63,683 nucleotides of DNA from a virus, in IMG/VR virus record IMGVR_UViG_3300010361_000005, positions 1 through 63,683 of that record. One strand, 5' to 3'. The notes below the pieces were generated by a model. It searched no databases. It was not told where the DNA came from and worked only from the letters and a program-made list of their open reading frames with translations. The stretch's first letter is position 1. Every line of letters starts with the position of its first letter. Positions 20,138 through 62,862 of this stretch are shown piece by piece. A program made the translations under genes and the position numbers.

Positions 20138-20763
20138 GCATCTTCGGAGCCATACAGATCGCCGACGATCTGGAGGAGGCTGTGCTCGACACTCTTGAGA
20201 AATGGTTCTACACGTACATGGTCGAGTACGAGCTACAGCGTCACTTGATCCCTGACAGAAACACCAGACCTACACACCCGATGCCGCGCAGCTACTTGAA
20301 GGTCAATCAGCTAGATAAGGAGGCGGCTGATCAGCTGCCGAGCATTGTGTGCGTGAGTCCTGGGCTCAGTAATAGGCATCCTCCAATGCAGGAGGGTGAC
20401 GGGTCATTCCGCGCATTCTTCAACGTAGGGGTCGGGGTCTTCTGCACCGCAAAGGATCGTAAGGACACCATGAAGATCTGCCGCATGTACACCGGCATCG
20501 CTCGTACCATCATGCTACAGCAGCAGTCGCTCGGTGGCTTCGCAGACGGCAGTGTCTGGCTGGACGAAAGCTACGATCCGCACTTCACCTTCACAGATGA
20601 TCAGACGATCAGCGCCGGACAGGTCTTGTTCGAGATCGAGGTCGCTGGCGTCATCAACAGGTTCGATGGTCCCAAGACTATCGATCCGTTGCCCGAGCAA
20701 CCGGGCAGCGATTGGCCATTGGCCGAAGAAGTCATAGCAACAGTCGAGATCCTGGAGGACTAA
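20134..20763 (+). CDS. hypothetical protein, possible tail completion protein (209 aa)
   Basis: ATGA overlap; position upstream of sheath. Confidence 0.45.
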   Translation: MSIFGAIQIADDLEEAVLDTLEKWFYTYMVEYELQRHLIPDRNTRPTHPMPRSYLKVNQLDKEAADQLPSIVCVSPGLSNRHPPMQEGDGSFRAFFNVGVGVFCTAKDRKDTMKICRMYTGIARTIMLQQQSLGGFADGSVWLDESYDPHFTFTDDQTISAGQVLFEIEVAGVINRFDGPKTIDPLPEQPGSDWPLAEEVIATVEILED

Positions 20764-21101
20764 TGCCGCAGACAAAGGCAAAGACACCGGACCCCACGGT
20801 ACCGGAGGACTACAGGAATCTTGCTCTGCACGTGGTGTGCCTCGCCAGTGGCCAGACGGTAGCCATCGGCGAGATCTTCCAGCTCACCGGTGAAGACGCA
20901 AGTGATCCACACAACCAAGCCCTCATCACGACTGGCAGCATCGTGAACTGTGCAGCATACGAGAATGCCATCACGGCAGAGGGCCAGGCAGCAGTGCCGG
21001 AAGCAGAGGCCGAGGGCGACGACAAGACCTCGCTCTCAACCTCTGGGAAGCCGGGCGTCGAGAAGCCTGCTGCTGAGACCGAGGAAGGAGCCAAGGAATG
21101 A
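20763..21101 (+). CDS. hypothetical protein with acidic low-complexity tail (112 aa)
   Basis: TAATG junction. Confidence 0.45.
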   Translation: MPQTKAKTPDPTVPEDYRNLALHVVCLASGQTVAIGEIFQLTGEDASDPHNQALITTGSIVNCAAYENAITAEGQAAVPEAEAEGDDKTSLSTSGKPGVEKPAAETEEGAKE

Positions 21102-25986: not shown

Positions 25987-26690
25987 GTAGCTATGGTCTT
26001 GGTAGTGAAGTTGCAGCTGATCATTACGTGACGCTGAGTTCCTCTTCAGGGCACAGGGTGAAGCTTCTGATGGACGCGGCTGCCGTCAGCATCACTGGCG
26101 GGCATGGTGGCTGGGAAGTCATCGATCGCCCGAAGCGAACGAGCATCACGCGCTGGAAGGGCAAGACGCCATATACGATGGATCTACCCGTTGTGTTCAA
26201 CGGGATCAGTCAGTACCGAAACATGGAGGCTGATATTCAGACGTTGATCAAGATGGCTGAGCCTGTGGGTCACCTGAAGGAGCCACCGACGATCCGGGTG
26301 ATCGGATCGGCATTGCCGCTTGCGGGGACACGGTGGTGGGTCATCGCCGACATGTCTTGGGACAATCAGCAGGCTACTTGGTATCGTTTCGGGCACATCA
26401 CAGGCCGAACGCGGCAGAGCGTAGTGATCCATCTTCTCGAGTATGTTGACGAGCAGATCATCCTGACGCAGCCCTCGCCTGCAGTGCTCAACGGTGCAGC
26501 CGGTGGTGGAAAGGTGATCAAGTCATCCGGGCTGACCGCGAAGCAGGAGGCTCAGAAGCATCTGGGTGACCCGAACCTGTTCCAGATCATCCTGGAGGCA
26601 AACCCATGGCTGCCTATTGATACGCGCCTGGGGATCCCAGCGGGGCAGGACTTGATCATTCCTGATAAGAAGACGAAGAAGAAGACCTGA
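25983..26690 (+). CDS. LysM-domain tail protein (XkdP-like)
   Basis: GTGA overlap; C-terminal LysM-like LTAKQEAQKHLGDPNLFQIILEANPWL...GQDLIIP. Confidence 0.6.
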   Translation: MSSYGLGSEVAADHYVTLSSSSGHRVKLLMDAAAVSITGGHGGWEVIDRPKRTSITRWKGKTPYTMDLPVVFNGISQYRNMEADIQTLIKMAEPVGHLKEPPTIRVIGSALPLAGTRWWVIADMSWDNQQATWYRFGHITGRTRQSVVIHLLEYVDEQIILTQPSPAVLNGAAGGGKVIKSSGLTAKQEAQKHLGDPNLFQIILEANPWLPIDTRLGIPAGQDLIIPDKKTKKKT

Positions 26691-28720
26691 TGCCAATCAA
26701 GGGGTCACCCGCATCCGCAACTGAGATCGTCGCCCTGCACTCGGGCAAGATGTCCGACCAGCTGGAGGCACTGGCTGAGGATATCGACATCGTCTCCTTC
26801 CAGACGGAGATACAGAACGAGCTCAGCATCGACCTGACCAACACGATCAGCTCAGCGATCATTCAGCGTACGATCGAGGGAGCGAGCACGCTAACCATCG
26901 TGGTCGAGGACGATCTTGACCGCACGATCCAGAACAGCGGTCGTCTAGGTCGGCACGTGGACGTGGAACTTGATGGCCTCTACTTCACGTTGGTTGGCGT
27001 CAAGAAGCAGGCACGCCAGCTGACGCTCGTGTTCGAGGATCGCGAGGTCAACGTTCTCCGCTACTACAACTCCTTCATCCAGGCTGATCGCACCAACGTC
27101 ACCCGCGCACAGTTCGTTCTCCGCATGATACGTGAGGTGAAGGAAGTGCCGCTGTCCTGGGTCATCCCAGAGCTCCACGTTACGCAGGCGATCAGCGACA
27201 TTCAGCCCAACCAGGTGATCTACGCCGCTGGTACTCCACAGATTACTCCGGCCACGGATCCTGTGACCAAGCAGAAGATGAAGAAGGAGCGAGCCAAGGG
27301 TATCCCTTCCCCGCAGGACACCCATGGGCTAACGGTACGCGGAGCGCCGATGGACACGGAGCAGTGGCAGAACGCTGTGACCATCATCAACACCGGCGTC
27401 GCGATGAAGTGCAACACCAAGGTAATCGTATCCTCCATCATGACGGCGATCGACGAAAGCAACATTCGCAACCTGACCGGTGGCGACCGAGACAGCGTCG
27501 GAGTGTTCCAACAGCGTCCGAGCATGGGCTGGCCTGCCTCACGAAACGTGGCCACCGATGCGGCAGCCTATCTCAGAGCAGCGGTGAGTGTGGACCAGGG
27601 CAACCCACAGCTGAGCCTGAACGATCTCTGCCAGAGTGTTCAGCACAGCGGTACTCCGTATGCTTATGGCGCGTTCCAGGTTGAGGCTGATAACATCGTG
27701 AAGGCTTATGGGCTTGACGTGAAGTCAGGCCTGGTTGATCCAAAATACGGGGTCAACAACATGGCCGACACGAGCACTGTCAACCCTGACTACAGCACGG
27801 GACCGTTCTTCTTCACGCGCGGTACGCTGACCACCGATCAAGCTGGCGAGACGCTGCTGACCAAGGAGGACAGCTGGACGTGCATCAAGCGTCTGGCAAG
27901 CGAGGTCAACTGGCGAGCGTTCTGCGTCAGCGGTGTGATCTACTTCATCGATGACAAGGATCTGTTTGCCAGCAAGCCGTTCATGGTCATTAGCGAGGAC
28001 AGCGACGGCATTGACTGGATTGACTACGACTACGACGAGGGCAAGCGTAAGGCTACCGTAACCGTCACCGCACACCTGTCGCGCTGGAGTGCTCCTCCTG
28101 GCTGCACGGTGCAGTGTGTTGACAGCGGCATCGTCAACGGCAAGTGGCTAGTGCAGGACATCAGCCGTAGTCTGTACGATCGCATCGCCACCATCACCAT
28201 GATCAAGCCTCAGCCGGTACTGCCCGAGCCAACGACCAGTCCTACCTCGCAGGCGATGGACCAGGCAACGGGTGCGACCAACGGCACAAACAAGAAGGCA
28301 CAGCCTGGTGGAGCGCGAGCCGGTTACGAGGGACCGCTGTCTACGAAGCAGAACAAGATCGTGTCCTTTGCGCGGCAGCAACTGGGCGTCACCTATGTAT
28401 ATGGAGCAGAGACGCCTGGCAAGGCATTCGACTGCTCCGGGCTGGCACAAGCAGCTTACAGCGCCGCGAACATTCAGATCCCGCGTGTAGCGCAGGATCA
28501 GTTCAATGCAGGCACTCCCATCTATCCGCCAGCCACCCTGCAGCCTGCAGATCTAGTATTCTTCGGAGCCAATTCCAGCAGCATAGAGCACGTGGGCATC
28601 TACATTGGGAACGGAGCCATGATCGATGCACCGCACACTGGAGCGGTAGTGCGCGTTGATGATGGCTTCACGTCGTGGACGAATCCACCTTACGCGGGAG
28701 CGGTGCGACTGTGGCAGTGA
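26690..28720 (+). CDS. baseplate hub-like protein (XkdQ-like) with C-terminal NlpC/P60 endopeptidase
   Basis: NlpC/P60 motifs YVYGAETPGKAFDCSGLAQAAY ... HVGIYIGNGAMIDAPHTG (about 28352-28720); central GDRDSVGVFQQRPSMGWP motif. Confidence 0.75.
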   Translation: MPIKGSPASATEIVALHSGKMSDQLEALAEDIDIVSFQTEIQNELSIDLTNTISSAIIQRTIEGASTLTIVVEDDLDRTIQNSGRLGRHVDVELDGLYFTLVGVKKQARQLTLVFEDREVNVLRYYNSFIQADRTNVTRAQFVLRMIREVKEVPLSWVIPELHVTQAISDIQPNQVIYAAGTPQITPATDPVTKQKMKKERAKGIPSPQDTHGLTVRGAPMDTEQWQNAVTIINTGVAMKCNTKVIVSSIMTAIDESNIRNLTGGDRDSVGVFQQRPSMGWPASRNVATDAAAYLRAAVSVDQGNPQLSLNDLCQSVQHSGTPYAYGAFQVEADNIVKAYGLDVKSGLVDPKYGVNNMADTSTVNPDYSTGPFFFTRGTLTTDQAGETLLTKEDSWTCIKRLASEVNWRAFCVSGVIYFIDDKDLFASKPFMVISEDSDGIDWIDYDYDEGKRKATVTVTAHLSRWSAPPGCTVQCVDSGIVNGKWLVQDISRSLYDRIATITMIKPQPVLPEPTTSPTSQAMDQATGATNGTNKKAQPGGARAGYEGPLSTKQNKIVSFARQQLGVTYVYGAETPGKAFDCSGLAQAAYSAANIQIPRVAQDQFNAGTPIYPPATLQPADLVFFGANSSSIEHVGIYIGNGAMIDAPHTGAVVRVDDGFTSWTNPPYAGAVRLWQ

Positions 28721-33748: not shown

Positions 33749-34084
33749 CTAGTAGCCAGCTAGCCTTTCCTGGCGGTCTTCCCGTTCACGCTGCTGATCG
33801 ATACGTGCAGCGTCCTGGCGAGCCTTCAGAAGCTTGGCGTGTGTTCTGTGGAATCTGCGGTCCTCGATGCGCTTATGCTCAAGCGCAATCAGGATCTTAC
33901 GCGCAGTCGCCTGCTGGACGGTACAGTGGACCCCATGAAGGATCCGCTGTACCGTCTGAGGCGACACAAGTGCGTATTGGGCTGCCGCCTGAGCGGTGCC
34001 ACACCGATCTACTAGCTCCTTGGTGTGTGGCTGAATCTTGGAGCAATCGATCGTCGACTTGTGATACTTCTCATAGCTACTCAC
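33749..34084 (-). CDS. helix-turn-helix DNA-binding protein (111 aa)
   Basis: GTGA overlap; HTH-like GTAQAAAQYALVSPQTVQRILHG; basic coiled C-terminus. Confidence 0.6.
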   Translation of the reverse strand: MSSYEKYHKSTIDCSKIQPHTKELVDRCGTAQAAAQYALVSPQTVQRILHGVHCTVQQATARKILIALEHKRIEDRRFHRTHAKLLKARQDAARIDQQREREDRQERLAGY

Positions 34085-35087: not shown

Positions 35088-35483
35088 CTAACCTGCCTTT
35101 CTCTTCACGACAGCCTTGGCCGTCTTGGTCTTCATGAAGTCGGTCATGGTCGTTGCCTTAGGGCGCAACTTCCCAACCTCTCCGGTCAGATTCGGCTTGA
35201 GGGTGACCTGTGCCTTGACCGGAGGGCTGTCGGTTTCCTTGATGTTGGCGATGCCTCCGAAGCCGACAACCTCCTCTCCCTTCTTCCACCGCGCTCCCTT
35301 GACTTGCGGCGGTCGATAGCGCCAGGTGATGCGGCAGATGCCCGGTACGGTGAAGTCCTCACCGAGCGCAATCTCGTCTGCCGCCACCTCAGCGATAGCG
35401 TCCATGACCGACTTCACCAAGTTGGGCTTGATGCCGGTCATCTCTTGCACCTCAAGTGCAAGTTCGTGTTTCGTGAGTGACAC
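35088..35483 (-). CDS. HU/IHF-family DNA-binding protein with extended arm
   Basis: GTG start 5 nt after AAGGGAG; SLTKHELALEVQEMTGIKPNLVKSVMDAIAEVAADEIALGEDFTVPGI. Confidence 0.7.
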   Translation of the reverse strand: MSLTKHELALEVQEMTGIKPNLVKSVMDAIAEVAADEIALGEDFTVPGICRITWRYRPPQVKGARWKKGEEVVGFGGIANIKETDSPPVKAQVTLKPNLTGEVGKLRPKATTMTDFMKTKTAKAVVKRKAG

Positions 35484-35543
35484 GTTTGCTCCCTTGGTAG
35501 TGATTCTTACAGACCGCAGAAGTGTCGTGTTGTAGGCCACGGG

Positions 35544-35870: not shown

Positions 35871-36212
35871 CTATAGTCCGCACATGTGTCTGGTTACCGG
35901 CCAAGGGTTCCATCCCCGCACTGCTACTGCGTTCCTTCCGGCTTGTAACTGTGCCCACACGGGCCAGTGATCTGCCGTGCCCCATCGCCGGTAGAAGGAC
36001 CCTCCAAATGTCCTCATGAAGTTGGAGTCCATTTGAAGCCCACCATAGTAGCCGTAGCCACTGCTGTTGGGATCTGTCCAGCTTCCCTCGTACGAGTGAA
36101 TGCACAACAACCCGCTCGTCACGTAGTCCGATGAACCACCGGCTGCGTGTGAGCTTCCTACCATGATGAACGCCGCGCATAGCGCAGCTAGGATGACTCG
36201 TGCCTTTGGCAC
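35871..36212 (-). CDS. secreted Rpf-like transglycosylase-domain protein
   Basis: GTG start after GGAG; signal peptide MPKARVILAALCAAFIMVGSSHA; SYEGSWTDPNSSGYGYYGGLQM and GWNPWP...CGL resemble the Rpf/transglycosylase-like domain. Confidence 0.65.
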   Translation of the reverse strand: MPKARVILAALCAAFIMVGSSHAAGGSSDYVTSGLLCIHSYEGSWTDPNSSGYGYYGGLQMDSNFMRTFGGSFYRRWGTADHWPVWAQLQAGRNAVAVRGWNPWPVTRHMCGL

Positions 36213-36260: not shown

Positions 36261-36274
36261 CGCGGTACACGCGC
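36261..36274. promoter_or_regulatory. partial GCGCGTACACGCGC-family box (CGCGGTACACGCGC)
   Basis: Last 10 nt identical to the 14-mer box; about 50-60 nt upstream of the Rpf-like gene start. Confidence 0.4.
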
Positions 36275-46101: not shown

Positions 46102-47181
46102 TCACCTACCCTCGTACACTTCGTGCTCGCTGTACGGGTCCCACTGCTTCGTTGTCTGCTCGAGAAATGCCAAGTAGTCGTTGCCGGTCTCGTGCAGCTC
46201 ACAGGCGTCGCGCATCGGGCACATCGGGCAGGTGAACATGCCCGGATTCTTCGTGAGCGGCAGCTGGCCGCGTCTGAATAGCTCAATGCGAGCGTAATCG
46301 ACCTGTGCGCGGTACTTGACCTCCTCGCGGTCGTGCTCATCCCGGAAGATCGGCATCCGCTTGAAGTACGGTGACGGCTGTTTCTTGCTGACCGTGCCAT
46401 CCTGGTTGAGATACATGCGCTTGCCGTCAATCAGCTTACTCGCTCGTTCATCAGGCATAGCCTTGCGCATGATGTTGTACATCATCCCGGCGAGCCGCTG
46501 TTTAGGGCCAAGGATCTTCTTCTCGCGCAAGAAGTCCACGCCATAGGACCAGTACGCTCCTGCCTGGTCATCCAGTACCAGATGGCTCCAGTTCTTGTCG
46601 CCGATGCCACCCGTAGTCTTGTGATCCGGGATCCAGATCTTCTTGTCGCGTCTGTCGCGCCAGAGACCATCAACGACGCCGGTGTAGTAGAACCATGGCT
46701 CTACCTTGCTATGCGGCCATTCAGCTTTCCGTACCTCATGCGTAACGAGTACGCGGAAAGGCATCTCGGTGGCGAGCACTTCCCAGCGGTCATCGTTGCC
46801 GTACTCGTCCACATAGTTGTTCATCATCGCGATGCCTAGCTCGTGGGCATTCTCCCAACGCTCGTCGTCACCCTCACCGACGCGCATGCCAAAGATCTCC
46901 TGGTTCTCCTTCATGTCGTCTTCGTAGGCTGCCTCAAACGCAACAGCGGGATGGGTGCCCCGCTTCACGCCGGGCACGTACCACGCAGCGAGTGCGCGGT
47001 GTACGAGGCTGCCGAAGCGCAGGGCAGGCGCATCAGTATGCGGCTTGAGCCGATCGTTGTACGTCCGGTCCCACAGCCACTCACACTTCTTCAGTGTGGT
47101 GCGCTCGCTGGTTCGCAACATAGGCAAACCGCGTCCGTTTGCTGCCCCACGCTTACCCGTCATGCTTGAACCCTCCACCAC
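46102..47181 (-). CDS. Cas4/RecB-family PD-(D/E)XK exonuclease with Fe-S cysteine cluster
   Basis: VVDGLW...IWIPDHKT nuclease motif; N-terminal KKCEW plus C-terminal CPMCPMRDAC (C-x2-C-x5-C). Confidence 0.7.
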   Translation of the reverse strand: MVEGSSMTGKRGAANGRGLPMLRTSERTTLKKCEWLWDRTYNDRLKPHTDAPALRFGSLVHRALAAWYVPGVKRGTHPAVAFEAAYEDDMKENQEIFGMRVGEGDDERWENAHELGIAMMNNYVDEYGNDDRWEVLATEMPFRVLVTHEVRKAEWPHSKVEPWFYYTGVVDGLWRDRRDKKIWIPDHKTTGGIGDKNWSHLVLDDQAGAYWSYGVDFLREKKILGPKQRLAGMMYNIMRKAMPDERASKLIDGKRMYLNQDGTVSKKQPSPYFKRMPIFRDEHDREEVKYRAQVDYARIELFRRGQLPLTKNPGMFTCPMCPMRDACELHETGNDYLAFLEQTTKQWDPYSEHEVYEGR

Positions 47182-47345
47182 TTGTAGGTACTAGACCGCC
47201 GGGGAACTGCCCCCGAACCGGGAACCCTACCGTACCCCAATCCCCGGCGCTAGTCTAAAAAGTCCGCTATTTACGGACGAATACTGCGACACCTATTCCT
47301 GTCGCAAATATCCTTCAAGTTATTCACAAGTGCCACAAGCCTCTC

Positions 47346-47361
47346 GCGCGAGCGCTCGCGC
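47346..47361. promoter_or_regulatory. 16-bp perfect palindrome GCGCGAGCGCTCGCGC
   Basis: Read directly; in the inter-operon region. Confidence 0.5.
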
Positions 47362-47400
47362 TCGGGCCGCCAGTTGCCCTAGTCACCTTTCCTCACGATC

Positions 47401-47414
47401 GCGCGTACACGCGC
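47401..47414. promoter_or_regulatory. GCGCGTACACGCGC box (exact)
   Basis: Exact 14-mer shared with 59777 and 59828. Confidence 0.6.
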
Positions 47415-47424
47415 TCGCGCGCTG

Positions 47425-47454
47425 AAGATCTTAGAGACTAAGAACTAAGATCTT
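47425..47454. promoter_or_regulatory. inverted repeat AAGATCTTAG-N10-CTAAGATCTT
   Basis: 10-bp perfect arms; overlaps a TTGACA hexamer at 47453-47458. Confidence 0.5.
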
Positions 47455-47482
47455 GACACAGTTTGTTCGCTCGCGCGGTCGA

Positions 47483-47496
47483 GCGCTTACACGCGC
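47483..47496. promoter_or_regulatory. GCGCTTACACGCGC box (13/14)
   Basis: One mismatch to the 14-mer. Confidence 0.45.
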
Positions 47497-47572
47497 GATC
47501 GAGTCCTACGCGCGAGAGCGATCCTGCCTCGCGAGCGCGAGCAAAGGAAAAGCCCTGGTTCCAAGCGATTCT

Positions 47573-47606
47573 GGATTTGTGGCTATCTTTGGATTTCCTT
47601 GGATTT
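47573..47606. repeat. three GGATTT (= AAATCC) repeats at 47573, 47591 and 47601
   Basis: Read directly in an AT-rich stretch. Confidence 0.5.
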
Positions 47607-47664
47607 ATTTGCGATTATGCTTATCCGTCGTTCTCTCAGAGACGATAGTCTCAAATCGAGCCAC

Positions 47665-47703
47665 AAAAAAAAACGGCTCCCAGCACTACCCATGCTGGGA
47701 GCC
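47665..47703 (-). terminator. rho-independent terminator of the early leftward operon
   Basis: 11-bp perfect stem GGCTCCCAGCA/TGCTGGGAGCC with a 7-nt loop, followed on the minus strand by nine T. Confidence 0.85.
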
Positions 47704-47949
47704 GTATTCGTCGAGGATTCTTTGATCGAAGCTGAACCAGTCGTCTTCAGCTGGCTTTGGCTCCGATTGAATCCTCGGTTTTCGTGCCGTCTTCGGTCGT
47801 GCAGGACGCTTTGGTGGCTCTTCCGGGACGATTTTCTCGTCTGGATGCGCCTTGAAAAGCGTCTTCACGACGTTGAGACACGGAATCAGGAAGATAATCA
47901 CGAGTGGAAAATACACGGCCTCTTCAAGACCGTGCATGACCGTGTTCAC
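47686..47949 (-). CDS. membrane protein with Pro/Lys-rich tail (87 aa)
   Basis: ATGA overlap; TM segment AVYFPLVIIFLIPCLNVV. Confidence 0.5.
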   Translation of the reverse strand: MNTVMHGLEEAVYFPLVIIFLIPCLNVVKTLFKAHPDEKIVPEEPPKRPARPKTARKPRIQSEPKPAEDDWFSFDQRILDEYGSQHG

Positions 47950-51411: not shown

Positions 51412-51747
51412 TCACGAAGTTCTCCGGCGTCGTGGGTCACGGAGCCGAATGCTGCCAACAGACAGAGTCCTCATTCCACCAGGATCCGTGTAGAGTTGCA
51501 CCAGATGCTTCTCACGGTGCTTCTTCTTGTCGGCTGGTAGGAACTGTCGGAAAGACATCACGCGAACATCATAGATGTGAGCTGGCAATGTGTATTCGAT
51601 CTCACGGCCATCATCTTTGCCTTTTCGCGTGGTCTCCTGAACTTCGACCCATATCCGGCTTCCCACCAGCAGACGCTCAAGCGGCGTCGTATCTGGTGGG
51701 TCGCCGGATGCGAGGACTTCCTCGACCGCCTGCCTTACTTGGGGTTT
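51412..51747 (-). CDS. start-less coding segment in the -1 frame relative to 51735..52250 (possible frameshift extension, 108 aa)
   Basis: Protein-like sequence (…IWVEVQETTRKGKDDGREIEYTLPAHIYDVRVMSFRQF…) with no start codon or SD at its 5' end; first codon after the upstream stop is GTA. Confidence 0.4.
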   Translation of the reverse strand, partial: KPQVRQAVEEVLASGDPPDTTPLERLLVGSRIWVEVQETTRKGKDDGREIEYTLPAHIYDVRVMSFRQFLPADKKKHREKHLVQLYTDPGGMRTLSVGSIRLRDPRRRRTS

Positions 51748-52250
51748 GCGCCTGCGCGCGTGCCCCTGCGTCCGGCAGGACGCCCACCGCGCTTGGTGGG
51801 CTCGGTCTTGGCGGCACCACGCCGCCCGGACGTGCCGCTCGGCTGCGCCTTGGCAGCCGCGCCGCGCCGACCGGAGCCACCCGTCTTCTTGACCGTGGTG
51901 ACACCGTCGAACTGCCGACCGCGAGCGGTCAGGTTGCTCGGGGCAGAACCGTGACCGGCCTGCTCGTAGAGCGCCTTGGCCTGACCGACGCTGACGCCAG
52001 CGTAGACGGCGATGCGGGGCCAGCGGAAGTTGCCGCTGCTGGCCGCCTTGTAGATCGCTGCCGGCGTGGCCGCGATCTTCAGGCTGGGATCTGCGGTGAG
52101 CTCGGCCTGCCACATTGCGCGGCCGATCATGCTCATCTCGATCCCAGTCTGCTCGGAGTACCACCGCTCGGACTCCCCACCGTTCTTCTTGATGAGGGCG
52201 ACGAGCTTGTTGAACTGTGCGGTAGGCACAGCCCTTGCTTCCCTTGCCAT
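51735..52250 (-). CDS. DNA-binding-like protein with RGG/AT-hook-like basic tail (171 aa)
   Basis: Globular N-terminal half; tail GGSGRRGAAAKAQPSGTSGRRGAAKTEPTKRGGRPAGRRG. Confidence 0.55.
   Translation of the reverse strand: MAREARAVPTAQFNKLVALIKKNGGESERWYSEQTGIEMSMIGRAMWQAELTADPSLKIAATPAAIYKAASSGNFRWPRIAVYAGVSVGQAKALYEQAGHGSAPSNLTARGRQFDGVTTVKKTGGSGRRGAAAKAQPSGTSGRRGAAKTEPTKRGGRPAGRRGTRAGANPK
51741..51747 (-). promoter_or_regulatory. candidate -1 slippery heptamer A_AAC_CCC
   Basis: X_XXY_YYZ pattern in the zero frame, 3 nt before the TAA stop of the 171-aa gene. Confidence 0.35.
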
Positions 52251-53219: not shown

Positions 53220-53432
53220 TCAGGCAGCGATGATGTCCTTGATGTCATCAAGGAGACCACCGTAGATGTCCTGCATGTGCTTGTGGTACTCCATCGCACG
53301 TGATGCGTTCTCGCGCTTCTGCTTAGACGGATGCGTGAGCTCGCGCTGTGCCAGGAGTTCCTTCTGACTATGCTTGTGGATCAGTTCTTCGACAGTGACG
53401 ACGATCGCGTCTAGCTTGTCCTTGTCACTCAC
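53220..53432 (-). CDS. hypothetical protein (70 aa)
   Basis: GTG start; 8-nt overlap with upstream gene. Confidence 0.5.
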   Translation of the reverse strand: MSDKDKLDAIVVTVEELIHKHSQKELLAQRELTHPSKQKRENASRAMEYHKHMQDIYGGLLDDIKDIIAA

Positions 53433-53676
53433 CGCGAAGCACTCCGGTGTCCTTCAGGTACTGCTCGAACTGAACGAGTACCGTGGCCTTGCGACCCTTG
53501 GGCTTGATGCCCGCCTTGCGCAAATATGCTTGCGCCTGTGCCATTGGCGGAACACGCCACCGCATGCCACTGCCGGCAGTCTTCACTTCCAGCTTCAGCT
53601 TGTTGTAGACCTGAAGCATGAAGAACGCCTGGATGGCCTCTGGCGTGTCGAGGATGATCATACCGTCCTTCGACAT
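53425..53676 (-). CDS. hypothetical protein (83 aa)
   Basis: 1-nt overlap (TGATG) with upstream gene. Confidence 0.5.
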   Translation of the reverse strand: MSKDGMIILDTPEAIQAFFMLQVYNKLKLEVKTAGSGMRWRVPPMAQAQAYLRKAGIKPKGRKATVLVQFEQYLKDTGVLRGE

Positions 53677-53867
53677 CAGACCACCTCAATGTTCGCGGCA
53701 CCATACTCACGGCACCGTTCGCAGTTGGGCAGATGACGTTTGCGGAAGTCTTCCCACCACTCTTCACCGATGTCAGCATATGCCCACATCGGATCTTCAG
53801 CTTGGGCTTGACTTGCCGCCGCCACATCCGGACATTCCGGATCTAGTGGGGCATGCCATCTTGGCAT
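53676..53867 (-). CDS. hypothetical Trp/acidic-rich protein (63 aa)
   Basis: ATG at 53867 sits 5 nt after the CCAGGGAGG leader. Confidence 0.5.
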   Translation of the reverse strand: MPRWHAPLDPECPDVAAASQAQAEDPMWAYADIGEEWWEDFRKRHLPNCERCREYGAANIEVV

Positions 53868-59222: not shown

Positions 59223-59713
59223 GAATCCCTGTGGAATGGTGGGTGGCTGAGTTCTTTGAGGATTGAGGTTGCGAATCCGCTGGTAAATCGGAACTTCTAA
59301 GGCTCAAAGCCGAGGGAATGCCTTCGCAAAACGTGGGGAAAAGGCCGCAGAATCCCATGTGTCTATTCTCTCCTGATTTGGCTACGACAAATCCGAATTC
59401 TTTGTGGTCACACATGCCATTTCGCATGGCGATTGTCGCAAAAAACTAAACACAAAGGAATCCGAAAGTGCGGGTGCAACGCACAAAAATTGCATTCAGA
59501 GATAGTTTCATGGCAAATAGCCGATTTGATCCGAATTATTTCAGTATTTTCGGCCATTTGAATCCGACAAATCCGACAAAAAAGCTTCTGTACTCCTTAG
59601 CTCAGTCATCAAATCGTATTTGTCTCTAAAAAAAAACTCGAAACGCAGGTTCTAGCAAATCCATAATCGCATGGAATCCAGATTCACCATTTCTATAGAA
59701 AGTAAAGAATCCC
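59223..59713. repeat. iteron-like cluster of about 12 RAATCCN repeats in AT-rich DNA
   Basis: GAATCC-type cores at 59223, 59273, 59350, 59389, 59457, 59528, 59561, 59570, 59657, 59673 and 59707, plus AAATCG variants. Confidence 0.6.
59561..59578. repeat. tandem AATCCGACA x2
   Basis: Two directly abutting 9-mers followed by an A run. Confidence 0.7.
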
Positions 59714-59776
59714 ATTCCATACACAAATCTCTCGTTCCCGTCGAGTCCAGATCGTCCTCGCGCGTAGGACTTGCGA

Positions 59777-59790
59777 GCGCGTACACGCGC
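59777..59790. promoter_or_regulatory. GCGCGTACACGCGC box (exact)
   Basis: Exact 14-mer. Confidence 0.6.
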
Positions 59791-59827
59791 GGGAGGAGAG
59801 CGATTTTCGCAAATGGGTCCAACGTAT

Positions 59828-59841
59828 GCGCGTACACGCGC
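59828..59841. promoter_or_regulatory. GCGCGTACACGCGC box (exact)
   Basis: Exact 14-mer, 51 bp from the copy at 59777. Confidence 0.6.
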
Positions 59842-60073
59842 TCGAGAGAGGAAATCTGCACTAGGCCGCCGCCATCGCACTTTCAGCCCACAAAGACGCT
59901 CGAATGCCCACAAAAGAAACTCCGACCGACCCGACTAGCTTTTCACCGCCGGATAAGGTAGACTAAGCCGTCGGTGTTCGGGGTGCTACCCGCTCGGGTC
60001 CTGGTAGTGTCCCTGAGCGGTAGCATCCCGGCACTAACGGCACCAAGCGACACTACCAACAGGGGACGGGGAT

Positions 60074-60364
60074 ATGAGTCAAGAAGAACCACTGCCGATC
60101 ACGCTGCCTGATCTCGAACGGCTGCTTTACGAAACTCGCGCGATCGTTCACCAGGAAGGACTGGGGACATGGTTTGAGCGGCGCGGCATGGAGTACGAGA
60201 CCATGTATCCGTTCTACATGGGCCTAATGGGCGCGGCCACTGAACACATCTACAGGCTGCAGCGACACGGCGATGACGGCACCGATGCGATCTTCGAGCT
60301 CATCCTCACAACTTTCCTGCTCGGATGGATGATGAAGGAACAATACGGGAGGGGTAGACCGTGA
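60074..60364 (+). CDS. hypothetical protein (96 aa)
   Basis: ATG after the GACACTACCAACAGGGGACGGGGAT leader. Confidence 0.55.
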   Translation: MSQEEPLPITLPDLERLLYETRAIVHQEGLGTWFERRGMEYETMYPFYMGLMGAATEHIYRLQRHGDDGTDAIFELILTTFLLGWMMKEQYGRGRP

Positions 60365-60621
60365 CATTGCACGTCAGGCTGATTCACACCCAGGAAAACG
60401 ACAAACAAGAGCAAGAAGCCTTGCTGTGGACAGACCACACTTGCGAGAAGCTTCAGGTTGCCCTGCCCTTCGGGCAGCTTCTCACGGTTCTTGATACGGG
60501 CGAGGACATCGCCGTCGTCATTCACGAGGCAGACCAGGATGAGAACACCGAACCCGCCGAGTGCGTGTATTCGTGTGTTCACAACGGAACTCCCAACAAT
60601 ATTCACGAACGGGGGGAATGA
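60361..60621 (+). CDS. hypothetical acidic protein (86 aa)
   Basis: GTGA overlap. Confidence 0.45.
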   Translation: MTLHVRLIHTQENDKQEQEALLWTDHTCEKLQVALPFGQLLTVLDTGEDIAVVIHEADQDENTEPAECVYSCVHNGTPNNIHERGE

Positions 60622-60648
60622 CATCAAACAACAAACGAAGGAGATGAG

Positions 60649-62862
60649 TTGAAAGCAAAGCAATACCTTCCGCTGGCGCTGATGCTTGCGGCGCTGATGG
60701 CGCTCACAGGTGTCATCACGGGTGTAGCATCCGCCGACGTGACAGGTGCAACCGCGACAAAGAACTGCCAGCAGGGTCCTTTTTCTCTGGGGCAGTCCAT
60801 TCACTGTACCTTTACGGTACAGAACGCCGGTGCATTTCCGGCGACGATCGACGTTCTGACGGAGACAAGCCCGCTTCCGAGCGGACCTACCACTCCGATC
60901 ACGTGCGTCGGTACCGACAGCGTGACGTACCACACAGGTGACACGCTCCCTCCGGGTGTGACCTGTTCCGGTGCGTTCGACGTTCCTGTCGGGAACGATC
61001 CAGCGTCATGTGGAACGCTACTGCGGGATAGGGTCGAGATCGACCTGAGCTATCCGCAGTTCGATCCGCCGCTGACCGCTGGTGCGTTTGCGACAGCAAC
61101 AACGGCCATCGTTTGTCCGGCGCAAGCGACCGTGGCGAAGACGGCTGACACGCTGAGCAAGCCGACCGACCAGGTGACGTATACGGTCACAGTCACAAAC
61201 CCGAATGTTGTGGCTGAGGACGTCACGTCCGTCAACGACACGCTCGTCGGGGACATCACGAGTCACTTCGCGTCGCCGCTTGCGGCCGGAGCGTCGGAGA
61301 GCTACACGTACCAGCGCACGGTGCTGGCGGGTGATCCTAACCCGCTGGTCAACACCGTGACGGCTGTACTCAGCGATGAGGGTACATCAGCGACGGCAAC
61401 GGCTTCGGCCAGCACCAAGCTGTTCTACCCAAGTGTTCACGTGACCAAGACGTGCGCACCAAGTCCCATCGAGGTTGGCGGGACGCTTCTCTGCACCATC
61501 ACGGTCACAAACACGAGCACCGGAACAACTCCTCCGGCGCTTCAACTCGACTCGCAGACTGATACACGGGCTGGGAATCTGGACTTGGTTGGAAATCCGC
61601 AGGTTGTTTCCAACAATTGTCTTGCCTCGCTCGCGACCGGCGGTAGCTGCACCATCGTTACCACCGATCACGTCGGCCTGTCCGATCTGCCTGGTCCGGT
61701 CGTGGACACCGCAACGGTGCATTACCATCCGCTCGGGTTCACGAACAACATCACGGACACGGCTGCTGCATCGGTGCCGGTGACTACGACAGCGACGATG
61801 ACGCTGACGAAGTCCTGTTCGCCGGCAGTCGAGAATGTTGGCGACACGACGACGTACACCTTCGTGATCACAAATACGGGTGACGTGCCGCTGACTCGCC
61901 AGAGCGTGAACGACACGCTTCTTGGTAACATCGGTGCTGACTTCCCCGCGACTCTTGCTCCTGGGGATTCGGCAACGGTGACCGAGACGCGGGTTGTCCT
62001 CGCGGGTGACCCGTCGCCGCTTCCGAACACGGTCACCAGCGTTTACGGCAACTCCGTGGTCAACGTGACGATCACGAAGTCGGCATCGTGTTCTATCGTT
62101 ATCAAGCATCCGTCCATGACGCTGACCAAGGCCTGCAATCCGCCGTCGGCTCATGTCGGCGATACGGTGCAGTACGGCTACACGGTCACCAACACGGGCG
62201 ATGTTACTCTGAACCTGAAGAGTGCCACCGATACGCTGCTCGGCGATCTGACCGCTGACTTCCCGGCAACGCTCGCGCCTGGACAGTCGGTGTCGTTCTC
62301 TGTGCCACGAGTAATCCTACAGAGCGACCCGAACCCACTACCGAACACGGTCACGACTGTGTACCAGGAAGAGGGCTTCACGGTCACTCTGACGAAGTCG
62401 GCTAGCTGCTCAGTGACGATCATTCCGCCCGGTACGGTGAAGGTGACGATCGGGTTCTGGAAGACGCATGCTCCGAAGTCCTGCAAGCAGGGCAACGGCA
62501 AGCAGGCGGATGCACTGACCCCGGCTCTCGGTTCGGGATTCCCGCTCGGTAGCGGTTACACGCTAACCGATCCGTGCGTGGCGGTGCAGCTGCTGAGCAA
62601 GGCTGTCCTGGGTTCGGGTGATCCCATCGGGAACATGCTTGCCCAGATGGTCGGTGCGGAACTGAACATCAATGCCGGCGGGACAACGAGCGGCAGTTGC
62701 TCGTTCATCAACGGCGCTATTACCGATGCCAACACGCTTCTGTCCGCGATCAACTTCAACGGCACCAGCTACACCAAGCCGCTGACGACCGCGCAGAAGA
62801 ACGAGGCATCTACGCTGGAAGGTCTGTTCTCAAGCTACAACAACGACAGCACGACCTGCTAG
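60649..62862 (+). CDS. secreted repeat protein (DUF11-type beta-domain repeats plus Cys-containing C-terminal domain, 737 aa)
   Basis: TTG start 5 nt after AAGGAG; signal peptide MKAKQYLPLALMLAALMALTGVITGVASA; five repeats incl. near-duplicate units LTKSCSPAVENVGDTTTYTFVITNTGDVPL... and LTKACNPPSAHVGDTVQYGYTVTNTGDVTL... Confidence 0.75.
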   Translation: MKAKQYLPLALMLAALMALTGVITGVASADVTGATATKNCQQGPFSLGQSIHCTFTVQNAGAFPATIDVLTETSPLPSGPTTPITCVGTDSVTYHTGDTLPPGVTCSGAFDVPVGNDPASCGTLLRDRVEIDLSYPQFDPPLTAGAFATATTAIVCPAQATVAKTADTLSKPTDQVTYTVTVTNPNVVAEDVTSVNDTLVGDITSHFASPLAAGASESYTYQRTVLAGDPNPLVNTVTAVLSDEGTSATATASASTKLFYPSVHVTKTCAPSPIEVGGTLLCTITVTNTSTGTTPPALQLDSQTDTRAGNLDLVGNPQVVSNNCLASLATGGSCTIVTTDHVGLSDLPGPVVDTATVHYHPLGFTNNITDTAAASVPVTTTATMTLTKSCSPAVENVGDTTTYTFVITNTGDVPLTRQSVNDTLLGNIGADFPATLAPGDSATVTETRVVLAGDPSPLPNTVTSVYGNSVVNVTITKSASCSIVIKHPSMTLTKACNPPSAHVGDTVQYGYTVTNTGDVTLNLKSATDTLLGDLTADFPATLAPGQSVSFSVPRVILQSDPNPLPNTVTTVYQEEGFTVTLTKSASCSVTIIPPGTVKVTIGFWKTHAPKSCKQGNGKQADALTPALGSGFPLGSGYTLTDPCVAVQLLSKAVLGSGDPIGNMLAQMVGAELNINAGGTTSGSCSFINGAITDANTLLSAINFNGTSYTKPLTTAQKNEASTLEGLFSSYNNDSTTC

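What the first reader, a model, noticed from the sequence alone, without database searches (positions are those of the whole stretch)
59777..59841. GCGCGTACACGCGC box family confined to intergenic DNA (candidate operator of a phage regulator)
The exact 14-mer GCGCGTACACGCGC occurs at 59777 and 59828 (51 bp apart, upstream of the rightward 60074 cassette) and at 47401 (between the two leftward operons).

Close variants:
- 47483: GCGCTTACACGCGC.
- 36261: CGCGGTACACGCGC, upstream of the Rpf-like gene.
- 677: a perfect palindrome, GCGCGTATACGCGC.
- 699 and 709: inverse orientation, between the RuvC-like gene and the terminase genes.

Every copy I saw lies outside a gene. Three exact copies of a near-palindromic 14-mer in 63 kb are unlikely by chance. 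The positions fit a shared operator or promoter element that switches middle or late transcription units. The only obvious sequence-specific DNA binder is the HTH protein at 33749-34084.
Basis: partly seen in the sequence, partly recalled or inferred. Interest (0 to 1): 0.62.

Follow-up and report, generated by a model that had tools for sequence, protein, structure and literature searches.

The report
Conserved paired palindromic boxes in phage control regions
A 14-letter near-palindrome recurs only in the few non-coding control regions of this uncultured phage and stays at the same places in related phages, so it is almost certainly a docking site for a DNA-binding protein, an ordinary kind of phage control element whose binder is still unknown.

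Summary
GCGCGTACACGCGC occurs exactly three times (0 expected). The degenerate consensus GCGCRTRYAYGCGC has 7 sites at one mismatch or fewer (0.37 expected). All 7 lie in three intergenic regions: A 677-722, B 47401-47496 and C 59777-59841. A degenerate fourth site, D, lies at 36261.

The window is a complete 63.7-kb uncultured actinophage-like myovirus.

- **Position:** related metagenomic phages (60-83% protein identity) keep the boxes at A, B and C, although the surrounding non-coding DNA no longer aligns by blastn.
- **Concerted change:** one lineage has a GC centre in 5 of 5 boxes; the window has AC or AT in 7 of 7.
- **Substitutions:** central changes are 28 transitions to 1 transversion.
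- **Arrangement:** boxes come in pairs with lineage-specific outer flanks. At B and C they bracket an AT-richer spacer upstream of an extended -10-like element.

My best reading is that these are binding sites of a dimeric sequence-specific protein in the operon control regions. The serious rival is that they are initiator sites of replication origins.

It has no Pfam match and is absent from relatives that keep the boxes.

This is a new member of a known kind, like the cluster O and cluster EG repeat motifs. Interest is moderate.

The parts
677..690 (.). Box A1, GCGCGTATACGCGC, a perfect palindrome. It lies 12 bp after the stop of the RuvC-like gene 117-665.
699..712 (-). Box A2 (GCGCATACACGCGC on the minus strand).
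709..722 (-). Box A3 (TCGCGTACACGCGC on the minus strand). It overlaps A2 by 4 bp.
677..740 (.). GC-rich tract of almost uninterrupted purine-pyrimidine alternation. It contains A1-A3 and further CGCG runs.
   Evidence: read directly
780..787 (+). Extended -10-like element GGTAGGGT, 57 bp downstream of box A3 (TAGGGT at 782-787). The identical 11-mer GGTAGGGTTCC also stands downstream of module B. This is inferred to be a promoter.
   Evidence: Relatives have GGTAGCGT, GGTACGCT or GCTATACT at the same place.
36261..36274 (-). Degenerate box D (minus strand GCGCGTGTAC-C-GCG, followed by CGAGAAGGAGAT and GCGCTCGCGAGG). It lies in the gap before the Rpf-like gene.
   Evidence: In relative G003 the same spot reads GGCATGCAC, that lineage's own centre.
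47401..47414 (.). Box B-proximal, exact 14-mer, 171 bp upstream of the -10-like element of the leftward replication operon.
47415..47482 (.). Spacer of module B (68 bp, 50% G+C, with an AT-rich core). It holds AAGATCTTAG/CTAAGATCTT palindromes and a GAACAAA element.
47483..47496 (.). Box B-distal, GCGCTTACACGCGC. With its flank it forms a 27-nt inverted repeat with the proximal site (47396-47422 against 47475-47501, 81% complementary).
   Evidence: (I19)
47503..47515 (-). Accessory box GTCCTACGCGCGA, the inverse of the box at 59758-59770.
   Evidence: I1
47222..47231 (-). Extended -10-like GGTAGGGTTC with an ACTAGC element 19 nt upstream, before the structured leader of gene 46102-47181. Inferred promoter.
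47673..47705 (-). Intrinsic terminator (14-bp stem plus a T run) that ends the early leftward operon just upstream of module B.
47565..47610 (-). RAATCC repeats (GGATTY on the plus strand) upstream of module B.
59223..59713 (+). RAATCC repeat cluster upstream of module C. It holds 11 of the 21 plus-strand copies in the genome.
59758..59770 (+). Accessory box TCGCGCGTAGGAC, 6 bp before box C-distal.
   Evidence: I1
59777..59790 (.). Box C-distal, exact 14-mer.
59828..59841 (.). Box C-proximal, exact 14-mer, followed by TCGAGAGAGGAA and ACTAGG. It lies 117 bp upstream of TAGACT.
59957..59964 (+). Extended -10-like GGTAGACT with TAGCTT 17 nt upstream, before the structured leader of gene 60074-60364. 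Inferred promoter.

Best explanation
The boxes are binding sites for a sequence-specific, probably dimeric, DNA-binding protein. They mark the phage's main control regions.

**The site.** Each site consists of two abutting 7-bp half-sites, GCGCRTR, in inverted orientation, with the GCGC arms 10 bp apart centre to centre. A lineage-specific flank of about 12 bp lies on one side.

**The arrangement.** Sites come in pairs:
- A, close-packed, lies ahead of the terminase/structural operon.
- B lies between the early-operon terminator and the replication operon.
- C lies in the region from which leftward and rightward transcription diverge.
- D, degenerate, lies ahead of the Rpf-like gene.
- At B and C the two sites bracket a 34-74-bp AT-richer spacer.

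**Proposed mechanism (inferred).** An early phage protein, or possibly a host protein, occupies both sites of a pair. It bridges or bends the spacer, possibly helped by the phage's HU-like protein (35088-35540). This would turn on, or gate, the downstream promoters, which have an extended -10 (GnTAnnnT) but no recognisable -35.

**What is shown:** non-random occurrence, restriction to intergenic DNA, conserved position, and concerted sequence change.

**What is inferred:** that a protein binds, its identity, and the direction of regulation.
For: **Enrichment.** There are 7 sites at one mismatch or fewer against 0.37 expected, all within 1.6% of the genome.

**Conserved position.**
- Relatives at 60-83% identity of the flanking nuclease or RuvC-like protein keep boxes at the homologous A, B and C places.
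- blastn alignments between the window and G001, G003, G006 or G007 stop at the edges of these intergenic regions.
- A more distant farmland phage, L062 (50% identity of the 171-aa protein), still has both modules.

**Concerted change.**
- The single 25-kb contig G006 has 5 of 5 boxes with a GC centre at A, B and C. The window has 7 of 7 with AC or AT.
- The degenerate D site follows the same rule, TGCAC in G003 against TGTAC in the window.
- The two sites of a module also share their outer flank (up to 12 of 12 positions). That flank differs between lineages: gatcgagagga, ggggtcgag, gcaggacaag.

**Not a long hairpin.** Pairs are usually inverted but sometimes direct (module C of the window; module B of L016).

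**Half-site degeneracy.** GCGCRTR with invariant GCGC arms 10 bp apart is the geometry of a dimer that contacts two successive major grooves. This rests on established knowledge of HTH dimers, not on a test.

**Context.** A terminator lies upstream of B. Extended -10-like elements conserved across relatives lie downstream of A, B and C.
Against: - No binder was identified. No Pfam match to a repressor, Cro, sigma or integrase family appeared among the roughly 68 ORFs scanned.
- The boxes sit 59-171 bp upstream of the inferred -10 elements, and that distance varies between relatives. They cannot act as classical promoter-overlapping operators for those promoters.
- No sigma-70-type promoter was found inside modules A or B, and none in the box part of C. 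The two matches in the C scan lie at 59535-59562 and 59638-59667, upstream of the boxes.
- Two other copies of the -10-like element lack boxes: 57132, which is intergenic, and 53907, which lies inside a small called ORF just upstream of gene 53429-53827.
- Box spacing (48-88 bp) shows no helical phasing.
- The distant relative L063 keeps the gene order and all core early proteins but has other motifs at the same places (CGCGCG-TTACTTAG-CGCG and GATTCCTACGTAGGAATC). No gene's presence or absence tracks the box.
Confidence: 0.5

Rival explanations
1. Modules B and C are replication origins, or an origin plus an auxiliary cis site as in P4 ori/crr or SPP1 oriL/oriR. The boxes would be initiator-binding sites that flank an AT-rich unwinding element, with the RAATCC repeats as further iterons.
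For: - There is a large imperfect dyad centred on an AT-richer spacer (G+C 0.35-0.51 against 0.59 for the genome) flanked by inverted sites.
- B lies directly upstream of the replication genes: PD-(D/E)XK nuclease, AAA_24, primase and DnaE.
- C lies at the point where the gene strand switches and at the minimum of cumulative GC skew.
- RAATCC repeats lie beside both modules.
- The unrelated element G004 carries four copies of the same 14-mer as iteron-like repeats. They lie next to an AT-rich palindrome and a TTGTCCACA word, which matches the actinobacterial DnaA box as I recall it.
Against: - Site A has box pairs only 8-20 bp apart with no AT-rich spacer, and site D is a single degenerate site. 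Neither looks like an origin.
- Having three or four loci is unusual for an origin.
- No initiator protein was recognised.
- GC skew follows gene orientation here and is not independent evidence.
Confidence: 0.2
2. The boxes are structural DNA elements rather than sequence-read sites. They would be alternating purine-pyrimidine tracts that flip to Z-DNA, or otherwise absorb negative supercoils, and so tune neighbouring promoters or origins.
For: - The 14-mer alternates purine and pyrimidine perfectly.
- In 33 boxes from 10 lineages, changes at central positions 5-10 are 28 transitions to 1 transversion, which keeps the alternation.
- Region A is 15 + 5 + 23 + 12 alternating bases interrupted only by single A residues.
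- Unrelated viral contigs carry similar alternating CG/CA tracts in non-coding DNA.
Against: - The concerted lineage-wide change of the central dinucleotide (AC to GC) at every locus is not needed for alternation. It points to a sequence-reading partner.
- The recurrent arm variant GAGC/GCTC breaks alternation but is tolerated.
- The conserved asymmetric flanks are not alternating.
- The transition bias is equally explained by a half-site that needs a purine at positions 5 and 7.
Confidence: 0.07
3. The boxes act in RNA as short GC-rich hairpins, serving as terminators without a U-tract, processing sites or stabilisers. Alternatively, the paired sites form one long hairpin.
For: - Each box can form a 5-bp GC stem with a 4-nt loop (-8.5 kcal/mol).
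- Module B can fold into a long stem (-54.8 kcal/mol).
- A lies just after a stop codon.
Against: - The folds are no better than shuffles: z from -1.1 to -2.0, with 7-28 of 200 shuffles as good.
- There is no U-tract and no Rfam family.
- Variants such as GCGCATATACGCGC or GAGCGTGCACGCGC put A-C or A-G opposite each other in the stem.
- The arms never vary, so there is no compensatory evidence.
- Pairs in direct orientation (module C of the window) cannot form the long hairpin.
- A loop would not change in concert at all loci.
Confidence: 0.05
4. The boxes are recombination or mosaic-boundary repeats, or remnants of a small mobile inverted-repeat element, with no regulatory role.
For: - Each site has 25-28-bp inverted ends around a short interior.
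- The cassette downstream of C (60361-62862) is absent from relatives.
- Cluster O repeats flank insertions and deletions (PMC4351075).
Against: - The positions are stable across lineages that have diverged to 60-70% protein identity.
- There are no crisp element ends and no target duplications. The dyad simply fades out over about 45 bp on each side.
- There are no copies elsewhere in the genome.
Confidence: 0.04

Closest known systems
17-bp dyad-symmetric repeats of cluster O mycobacteriophages (TGTTCGGNNNCCGAACA) and 18-bp inverted repeats of cluster EG Microbacterium phages (GATCAACCNNGGTTGATC)
   Same: - These are short inverted-repeat motifs repeated in actinophage genomes.
- They are mostly intergenic and conserved among cluster members even where the surrounding DNA has diverged.
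- Their function and binder are unknown (PMC4351075; PMC7302621).
   Different: - This phage has only 7-8 copies in 3-4 loci, against more than 30 spread through cluster O genomes or 8-10 start-proximal copies in cluster EG.
- Copies here come in pairs with asymmetric flanks.
- They lie far (59-171 bp) upstream of promoter-like elements, not 14-22 bp before start codons.
- The sequence is different and has no central spacer.
Stoperators of cluster A mycobacteriophages (L5 gp71-type immunity repressor sites)
   Same: Many copies of one short site in non-coding DNA, with the site sequence evolving together with the phage lineage (PMC6550527 and PMC9283540, listed).
   Different: - Stoperators are asymmetric 13-17-bp sites oriented with transcription.
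- They are bound by a monomeric repressor of a temperate phage.
- Here the core is symmetric and the copies are few.
- No repressor or integrase was found among the ORFs scanned.
Phage phi29 protein p4 sites with histone-like p6 (recalled from memory, not tested)
   Same: Pairs of inverted-repeat sites some tens of bp apart, bound by a dimeric early regulator. Together with a phage nucleoid protein it bends the DNA between the sites and switches early and late promoters. This phage also encodes an HU-like protein.
   Different: There is no sequence or protein similarity. The phi29 sites lie directly at the promoters. Nothing here has been shown to bind.
Origins with initiator sites flanking an AT-rich core: lambda ori iterons inside gene O, SPP1 oriL/oriR, P4 ori/crr (recalled from memory)
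   Same: Dyad-symmetric repeated sites next to an AT-rich stretch, near replication genes, and at more than one locus in SPP1 and P4.
   Different: No initiator was identified. Sites A and D lack the AT-rich core. No replication data exist.

Membership tests
Conserved intergenic inverted-repeat motifs of actinophages (cluster O and cluster EG type) | A short motif with dyad symmetry repeated several times in one genome, far above chance | tested here: met
   5 exact and 7 near matches to GCGCRTRYAYGCGC against 0.017 and 0.37 in simulations; 0 of 100 shuffles had the exact 14-mer.
Conserved intergenic inverted-repeat motifs of actinophages (cluster O and cluster EG type) | Located mainly in intergenic DNA | tested here: met
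   All 7 sites, plus the degenerate site D, lie in gaps between called genes.
Conserved intergenic inverted-repeat motifs of actinophages (cluster O and cluster EG type) | Conserved in related phages at corresponding places despite divergence of the surroundings | tested here: met
   blastn alignments stop at the edges of the intergenic regions.
Cluster A stoperators | An asymmetric site whose orientation follows the direction of transcription | tested here: not met
   The core is a near-palindrome. Pairs are inverted in most modules and direct in a few.
Cluster A stoperators | Temperate phage with an immunity repressor and integrase | tested here: not met
   No repressor or integrase family matched in about 68 ORFs scanned against Pfam. 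Not every small ORF was scanned.
Replication origin (iterons plus an AT-rich unwinding element) | Repeated binding sites next to an AT-rich stretch | tested here: inconclusive
   Met at B and C (spacer G+C 0.35-0.51). Not met at A and D.
Replication origin (iterons plus an AT-rich unwinding element) | A cognate initiator protein and replication that starts there | not testable with these tools
   No initiator family was recognised.
Intrinsic terminator or structured RNA | A stable stem-loop, beyond what composition gives, followed by a U-tract, or a match to an RNA family | tested here: not met
   z from -1.1 to -2.0. No terminator-like site at the boxes. No Rfam match in the window.
Z-DNA-prone tract | Uninterrupted purine-pyrimidine alternation of 12 bp or more, rich in CG | tested here: met
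   14-15 bp per box and 23 bp within region A. Whether Z-DNA forms cannot be tested here.

The most novel reading that the evidence does not exclude
The element may be read by shape rather than, or as well as, by sequence. Selection keeps a perfect purine-pyrimidine alternation: 28 transitions to 1 transversion in the box centre, and a 58-nt almost fully alternating tract at A. On this reading the boxes would be supercoil-responsive Z-DNA-type switches at phage control regions. They might be recognised by a host factor shared with the unrelated integrative element G004, which carries four copies of the same 14-mer.
Probability: 0.07. Interest if true: 0.75.

Novelty: new member of a known kind. 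Interest (0 to 1): 0.4.

Why it matters
- **Control map.** The finding gives a concrete, comparatively supported map of the control regions of an uncultured lineage of actinobacterial myoviruses. It defines a 14-bp site with a clear half-site rule (GCGCRTR) that could be used to fish for its binder.
- **Source of the factor.** If the binder is phage-encoded, this would be a new regulator-and-site pair for temporal control in lytic actinophages, where almost nothing is known. If it is host-encoded, the site would help to assign hosts to these metagenomic phages.
- **Co-evolution.** The paired-site module with a lineage-specific centre and flank is a natural system for studying how a site and its binder evolve together.
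- **Overall.** Short conserved palindromes in phage intergenic DNA are a familiar finding, so the element itself is not surprising.

Tried and rejected
- **Cultured relatives.** None are close. Megablast against phage records found nothing. The best protein matches are about 37-45% identical, to terminase and DnaE of Streptomyces, Arthrobacter, Microbacterium and cluster D mycobacteriophages.
- **Host regulon.** A paired-box scan of 185,579 species genomes returned only tandem repeats in unrelated GC-rich genomes. It gave no host clue.
- **The HTH protein 33749-34084 as binder.** It has no Pfam or PDB match, a poor model, and no homologue in G001 or G003.
- **The 171-aa basic protein 51735-52250.** It has no Pfam (one sub-threshold match, E 0.075), PHROG or PDB match. 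Its 45 homologues are all unnamed metagenomic proteins. It is present in box-bearing L062 and also in L063, which lacks the box, so it does not track the box.
- **Gene presence or absence against the box.** No early gene is present in every box-bearing lineage yet missing from L063.
- **Shared protein with G004.** blastp and tblastx found none. No relatives of G004 were found.
- **A promoter inside the AT-rich spacer.** No consistent -35/-10 pair was seen across relatives. A CTAG about 21 nt after the proximal box is conserved in 9 of 13 modules, but it lacks the -7 T of a -10 element.
- **GATC clustering.** This idea was dropped because GATC is common throughout the genome, with 514 copies.
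- **RNA folds.** Not significant.
- **Global alignments of modules.** Box columns are 64-89% identical and other columns 43-56%. The alignments misplace boxes because spacing varies, and the script stopped after six comparisons, so I give this little weight.

Full report

Yes. GCGCGTACACGCGC occurs at 47401, 59777 and 59828, and in none of 100 dinucleotide-preserving shuffles. At two mismatches or fewer there are 11 strand-hits, which make 7 distinct sites, against 1.28 expected.

The variants fit the degenerate consensus GCGCRTRYAYGCGC. That consensus has 5 exact matches and 7 matches at one mismatch or fewer. In 300 first-order Markov simulations the means were 0.017 and 0.37. All seven lie in three gaps between called genes:
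- A, 666-794;
- B, 47182-47685;
- C, 59558-59973.

Together these gaps make 1.6% of the sequence. The single additional hit at two mismatches (54927, inside a gene) is at the chance level.

The copy at 36261 is a degenerate site: 10 of 14 positions match, with a one-base insertion. It sits in the roughly 100-bp gap before the Rpf-like gene 35871-36212.

**2. What the window is.**

The window is a complete IMG/VR virus record of 63,683 bp whose ends repeat 123 bp.
- It encodes a Mu-type portal, a capsid protein, a tail sheath, baseplate J and a tape measure protein.
- It also encodes DnaE, a DnaG-type primase, an SNF2 helicase, a PD-(D/E)XK nuclease, ThyX and an HU-like protein.
- No integrase or repressor family matched.
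- The nearest cultured phages are only about 37-45% identical in terminase and DnaE. They infect Actinobacteria.

Plus-strand genes run from 60074 across the ends to 33174. Minus-strand genes run from about 59557 to 33192. A strong terminator at 47673-47705 splits the minus-strand block into an operon of small genes and the replication operon.

The boxes therefore sit at four places:
- A, after the RuvC-like gene and ahead of the terminase/structural genes;
- B, between the terminator and the replication operon;
- C, in the region where leftward and rightward genes diverge;
- D, before the Rpf-like gene.

**3. Anatomy.**

*The box.* It consists of two abutting 7-bp half-sites, GCGCRTR, in inverted orientation. 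The dominant form is a hybrid of GCGCGTA and GCGCGTG, so the centre (AC) is not symmetric.

*The flank.* Each box carries a flank of about 12 bp on one side, for example GATCGAGAGGA.

*The pairing.* Sites come in pairs.
- At B and C the two sites lie 48-88 bp apart, start to start, across relatives, with no helical phasing.
- They bracket a spacer with lower G+C (0.35-0.51 against 0.59 for the genome). The spacer often holds GAACAAA and AGATCT-type palindromes.
- At A the sites are only 8-20 bp apart.

*Shared surroundings of B and C.* RAATCC repeats lie upstream. An accessory box, TCGCGCGTAGGAC, lies beside the distal site. Downstream there is an extended -10-like element followed by a structured leader:
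- GGTAGGGT, 57 bp from the last box at A;
- GGTAGGGT at B, with its TAGGGT hexamer 171 bp from the proximal box;
- GGTAGACT at C, with its TAGACT hexamer 117 bp from the proximal box.

That these elements are promoters is an inference.

**4. Comparative evidence.**

Protein-anchored searches of viral contigs found relatives with 60-83% identity of the nuclease and 71-97% identity of the RuvC-like protein. Pattern scans found further relatives.

*Conserved position.*
- In every lineage whose contig covers the place, boxes are present at the homologous A, B and C positions.
- blastn alignments between the window and G001, G003, G006 and G007 stop at the borders of these intergenic regions.
- A farmland phage, L062, whose 171-aa protein is only 50% identical, still has both modules.

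*Concerted change.*
- In the single 25-kb contig G006 all five boxes (A, B and C) have a GC centre (GCGCGTGCAYGCGC). All seven in the window have AC or AT.
- The degenerate D site follows the rule: TGCAC in G003, TGTAC in the window.
- The outer flanks are nearly identical between the two sites of a module (up to 12 of 12 positions) but differ between lineages.

*Substitution pattern.* I compared 33 boxes from 10 lineages with the consensus.
- Positions 5-10 show 28 transitions and 1 transversion.
- The GCGC arms show 0 transitions and 13 transversions, mostly the recurrent GAGC/GCTC variant.
- These counts include inherited changes and are not independent events.

*Loss in a distant relative.* L063 keeps the gene order, but at the same places it has other motifs built around CGCGCG: CGCGCG-TTACTTAG-CGCG and the palindrome GATTCCTACGTAGGAATC.

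Such turnover of a site at a fixed place, with concerted change at all loci of a genome, is what a site that co-evolves with a trans-acting reader would show. Gene conversion among copies could add to it.

**5. Who binds?**

This remains unresolved.

- It has an HTH-looking stretch but no Pfam match, and only a PHROG family of unknown function.
- It has no PDB relative.
- The single-sequence model is poor, with mean pLDDT 67.
- It has no homologue in G001 or G003, which keep the boxes. The same slot after ThyX holds an unrelated protein there.

*The 171-aa basic protein, 51735-52250.* It is conserved in all lineages, but it has no significant Pfam, PHROG or PDB match and only unnamed metagenomic homologues. 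It is equally present in L063, which lacks the box.

*Other tests.*
- No early gene's presence tracks the box.
- A host factor cannot be excluded. An unrelated 27.5-kb element with an integrase (G004) carries four copies of the same 14-mer, as TTGCGCGTGTACGCGCAA repeats beside an AT-rich palindrome. It shares no protein with the window.
- A scan of species genomes for paired boxes gave only unrelated tandem repeats.

**6. Rival readings.**

*Origin of replication.* This is the serious rival for B and C. In its favour:
- sites flank an AT-richer core;
- B lies next to the replication genes;
- C lies at the strand-switch point;
- iteron-like RAATCC repeats lie nearby.

A and D lack such a core, and no initiator is known.

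*RNA hairpins.* This reading is poorly supported:
- the folds are not better than shuffles;
- there is no U-tract;
- there is no Rfam match;
- natural variants would mispair;
- directly repeated pairs exist.

*Structural (Z-DNA-type) element.* The alternation and the transition bias suggest it. It does not explain the concerted change of the centre or the conserved non-alternating flanks.

*Mobile element or recombination repeat.* This does not fit the stable positions or the absence of defined ends.

**7. Comparison with what is known.**

Short dyad-symmetric motifs repeated in intergenic DNA and conserved within a cluster are documented in actinophages. Examples are cluster O (17 bp, more than 30 copies, function unknown; PMC4351075) and cluster EG (18 bp, 8-10 copies before start codons; PMC7302621).

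Cluster A stoperators are the best-understood case of many sites that co-evolve with a repressor (papers listed). They are asymmetric, oriented with transcription, and belong to temperate phages.

The present element belongs to this general kind. It differs in four ways:
- few copies;
- a strictly paired arrangement with asymmetric flanks;
- placement well upstream of the promoter-like elements;
- an AT-richer spacer at two loci.

**8. Verdict.**

This is a real, conserved cis-element and a new member of a known kind. I put 0.5 on protein-binding sites that govern the operon control regions, and 0.2 on origin-type initiator sites. The rest is spread over structural, RNA and recombination readings. 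Interest is moderate (0.4).

Transcript starts and depth profiles, which would have separated the two leading readings, could not be examined.

Noticed in passing
G004 = IMGVR_UViG_3300012956_000010 (L026, L027), bases 16389-16509: An unrelated 27.5-kb element with terminal repeats, a tyrosine integrase and an HTH_7 protein carries four exact copies of the same 14-mer as TTGCGCGTGTACGCGCAA repeats. They lie beside an AT-rich palindrome and a TTGTCCACA word, and inside a 266-aa ORF that has no relatives. The element shares no protein with the window. The cause could be a shared host factor, an iteron family or coincidence.
   Followed up: partly
window 780-787 (+), 47222-47231 (-), 59957-59964 (+), 57132 (-), 53907 (-): There is a family of extended -10-like elements, G(G/C)TA(G/T)NNT(T/A)C. 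The 11-mer GGTAGGGTTCC is identical at A and B. An ACTAGC/TAGCTT element lies about 17-19 nt upstream at B and C. The family is conserved in relatives. These are likely the phage's main promoters.
   Followed up: partly
window 795-797: The GTG start of ORF 795-1019 lies 7-8 nt after the -10-like TAGGGT, which could mean a leaderless transcript. Relatives instead have an ATG 6-12 nt after their -10-like element.
   Followed up: no
window 33749-34084 and the same slot in G001 (26674-27276) and G003 (20367-20936): The slot after the ThyX gene holds non-homologous small proteins in different lineages: a 111-aa HTH-like protein here, and a conserved protein of about 150-190 aa ending in ...NPNWSPE(K/R)WLAYM.ERGC in G001 and G003.
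   Followed up: partly
L063 (jgi 3300086553 contig, 57 kb), 1340-1560 and 15760-15960: A more distant relative keeps the gene order but has replaced the boxes with CGCGCG-TTACTTAG-CGCG words and an 18-bp perfect palindrome, GATTCCTACGTAGGAATC, at the equivalent control regions. The palindrome's CCTACG core recalls the window's accessory box TCGCGCGTAGGAC.
   Followed up: partly
window 60361-62862: The 86-aa and 737-aa (DUF11/DUF7507 Ig-like repeat) genes downstream of module C have no counterpart in any relative examined. The first gene of the unit, 60074-60364, is conserved.
   Followed up: partly
window 47565-47610 and 59223-59713: RAATCC repeats cluster upstream of both paired-box modules, in the same orientation relative to the downstream operon. 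Relatives also have AAATCC-type words there.
   Followed up: partly
proximal boxes of modules B and C in the window and relatives: A CTAG tetranucleotide lies 19-24 nt beyond the proximal box in 9 of 13 modules, often as ACTAGG. It is too poor a match for a -10 element and remains unexplained.
   Followed up: partly
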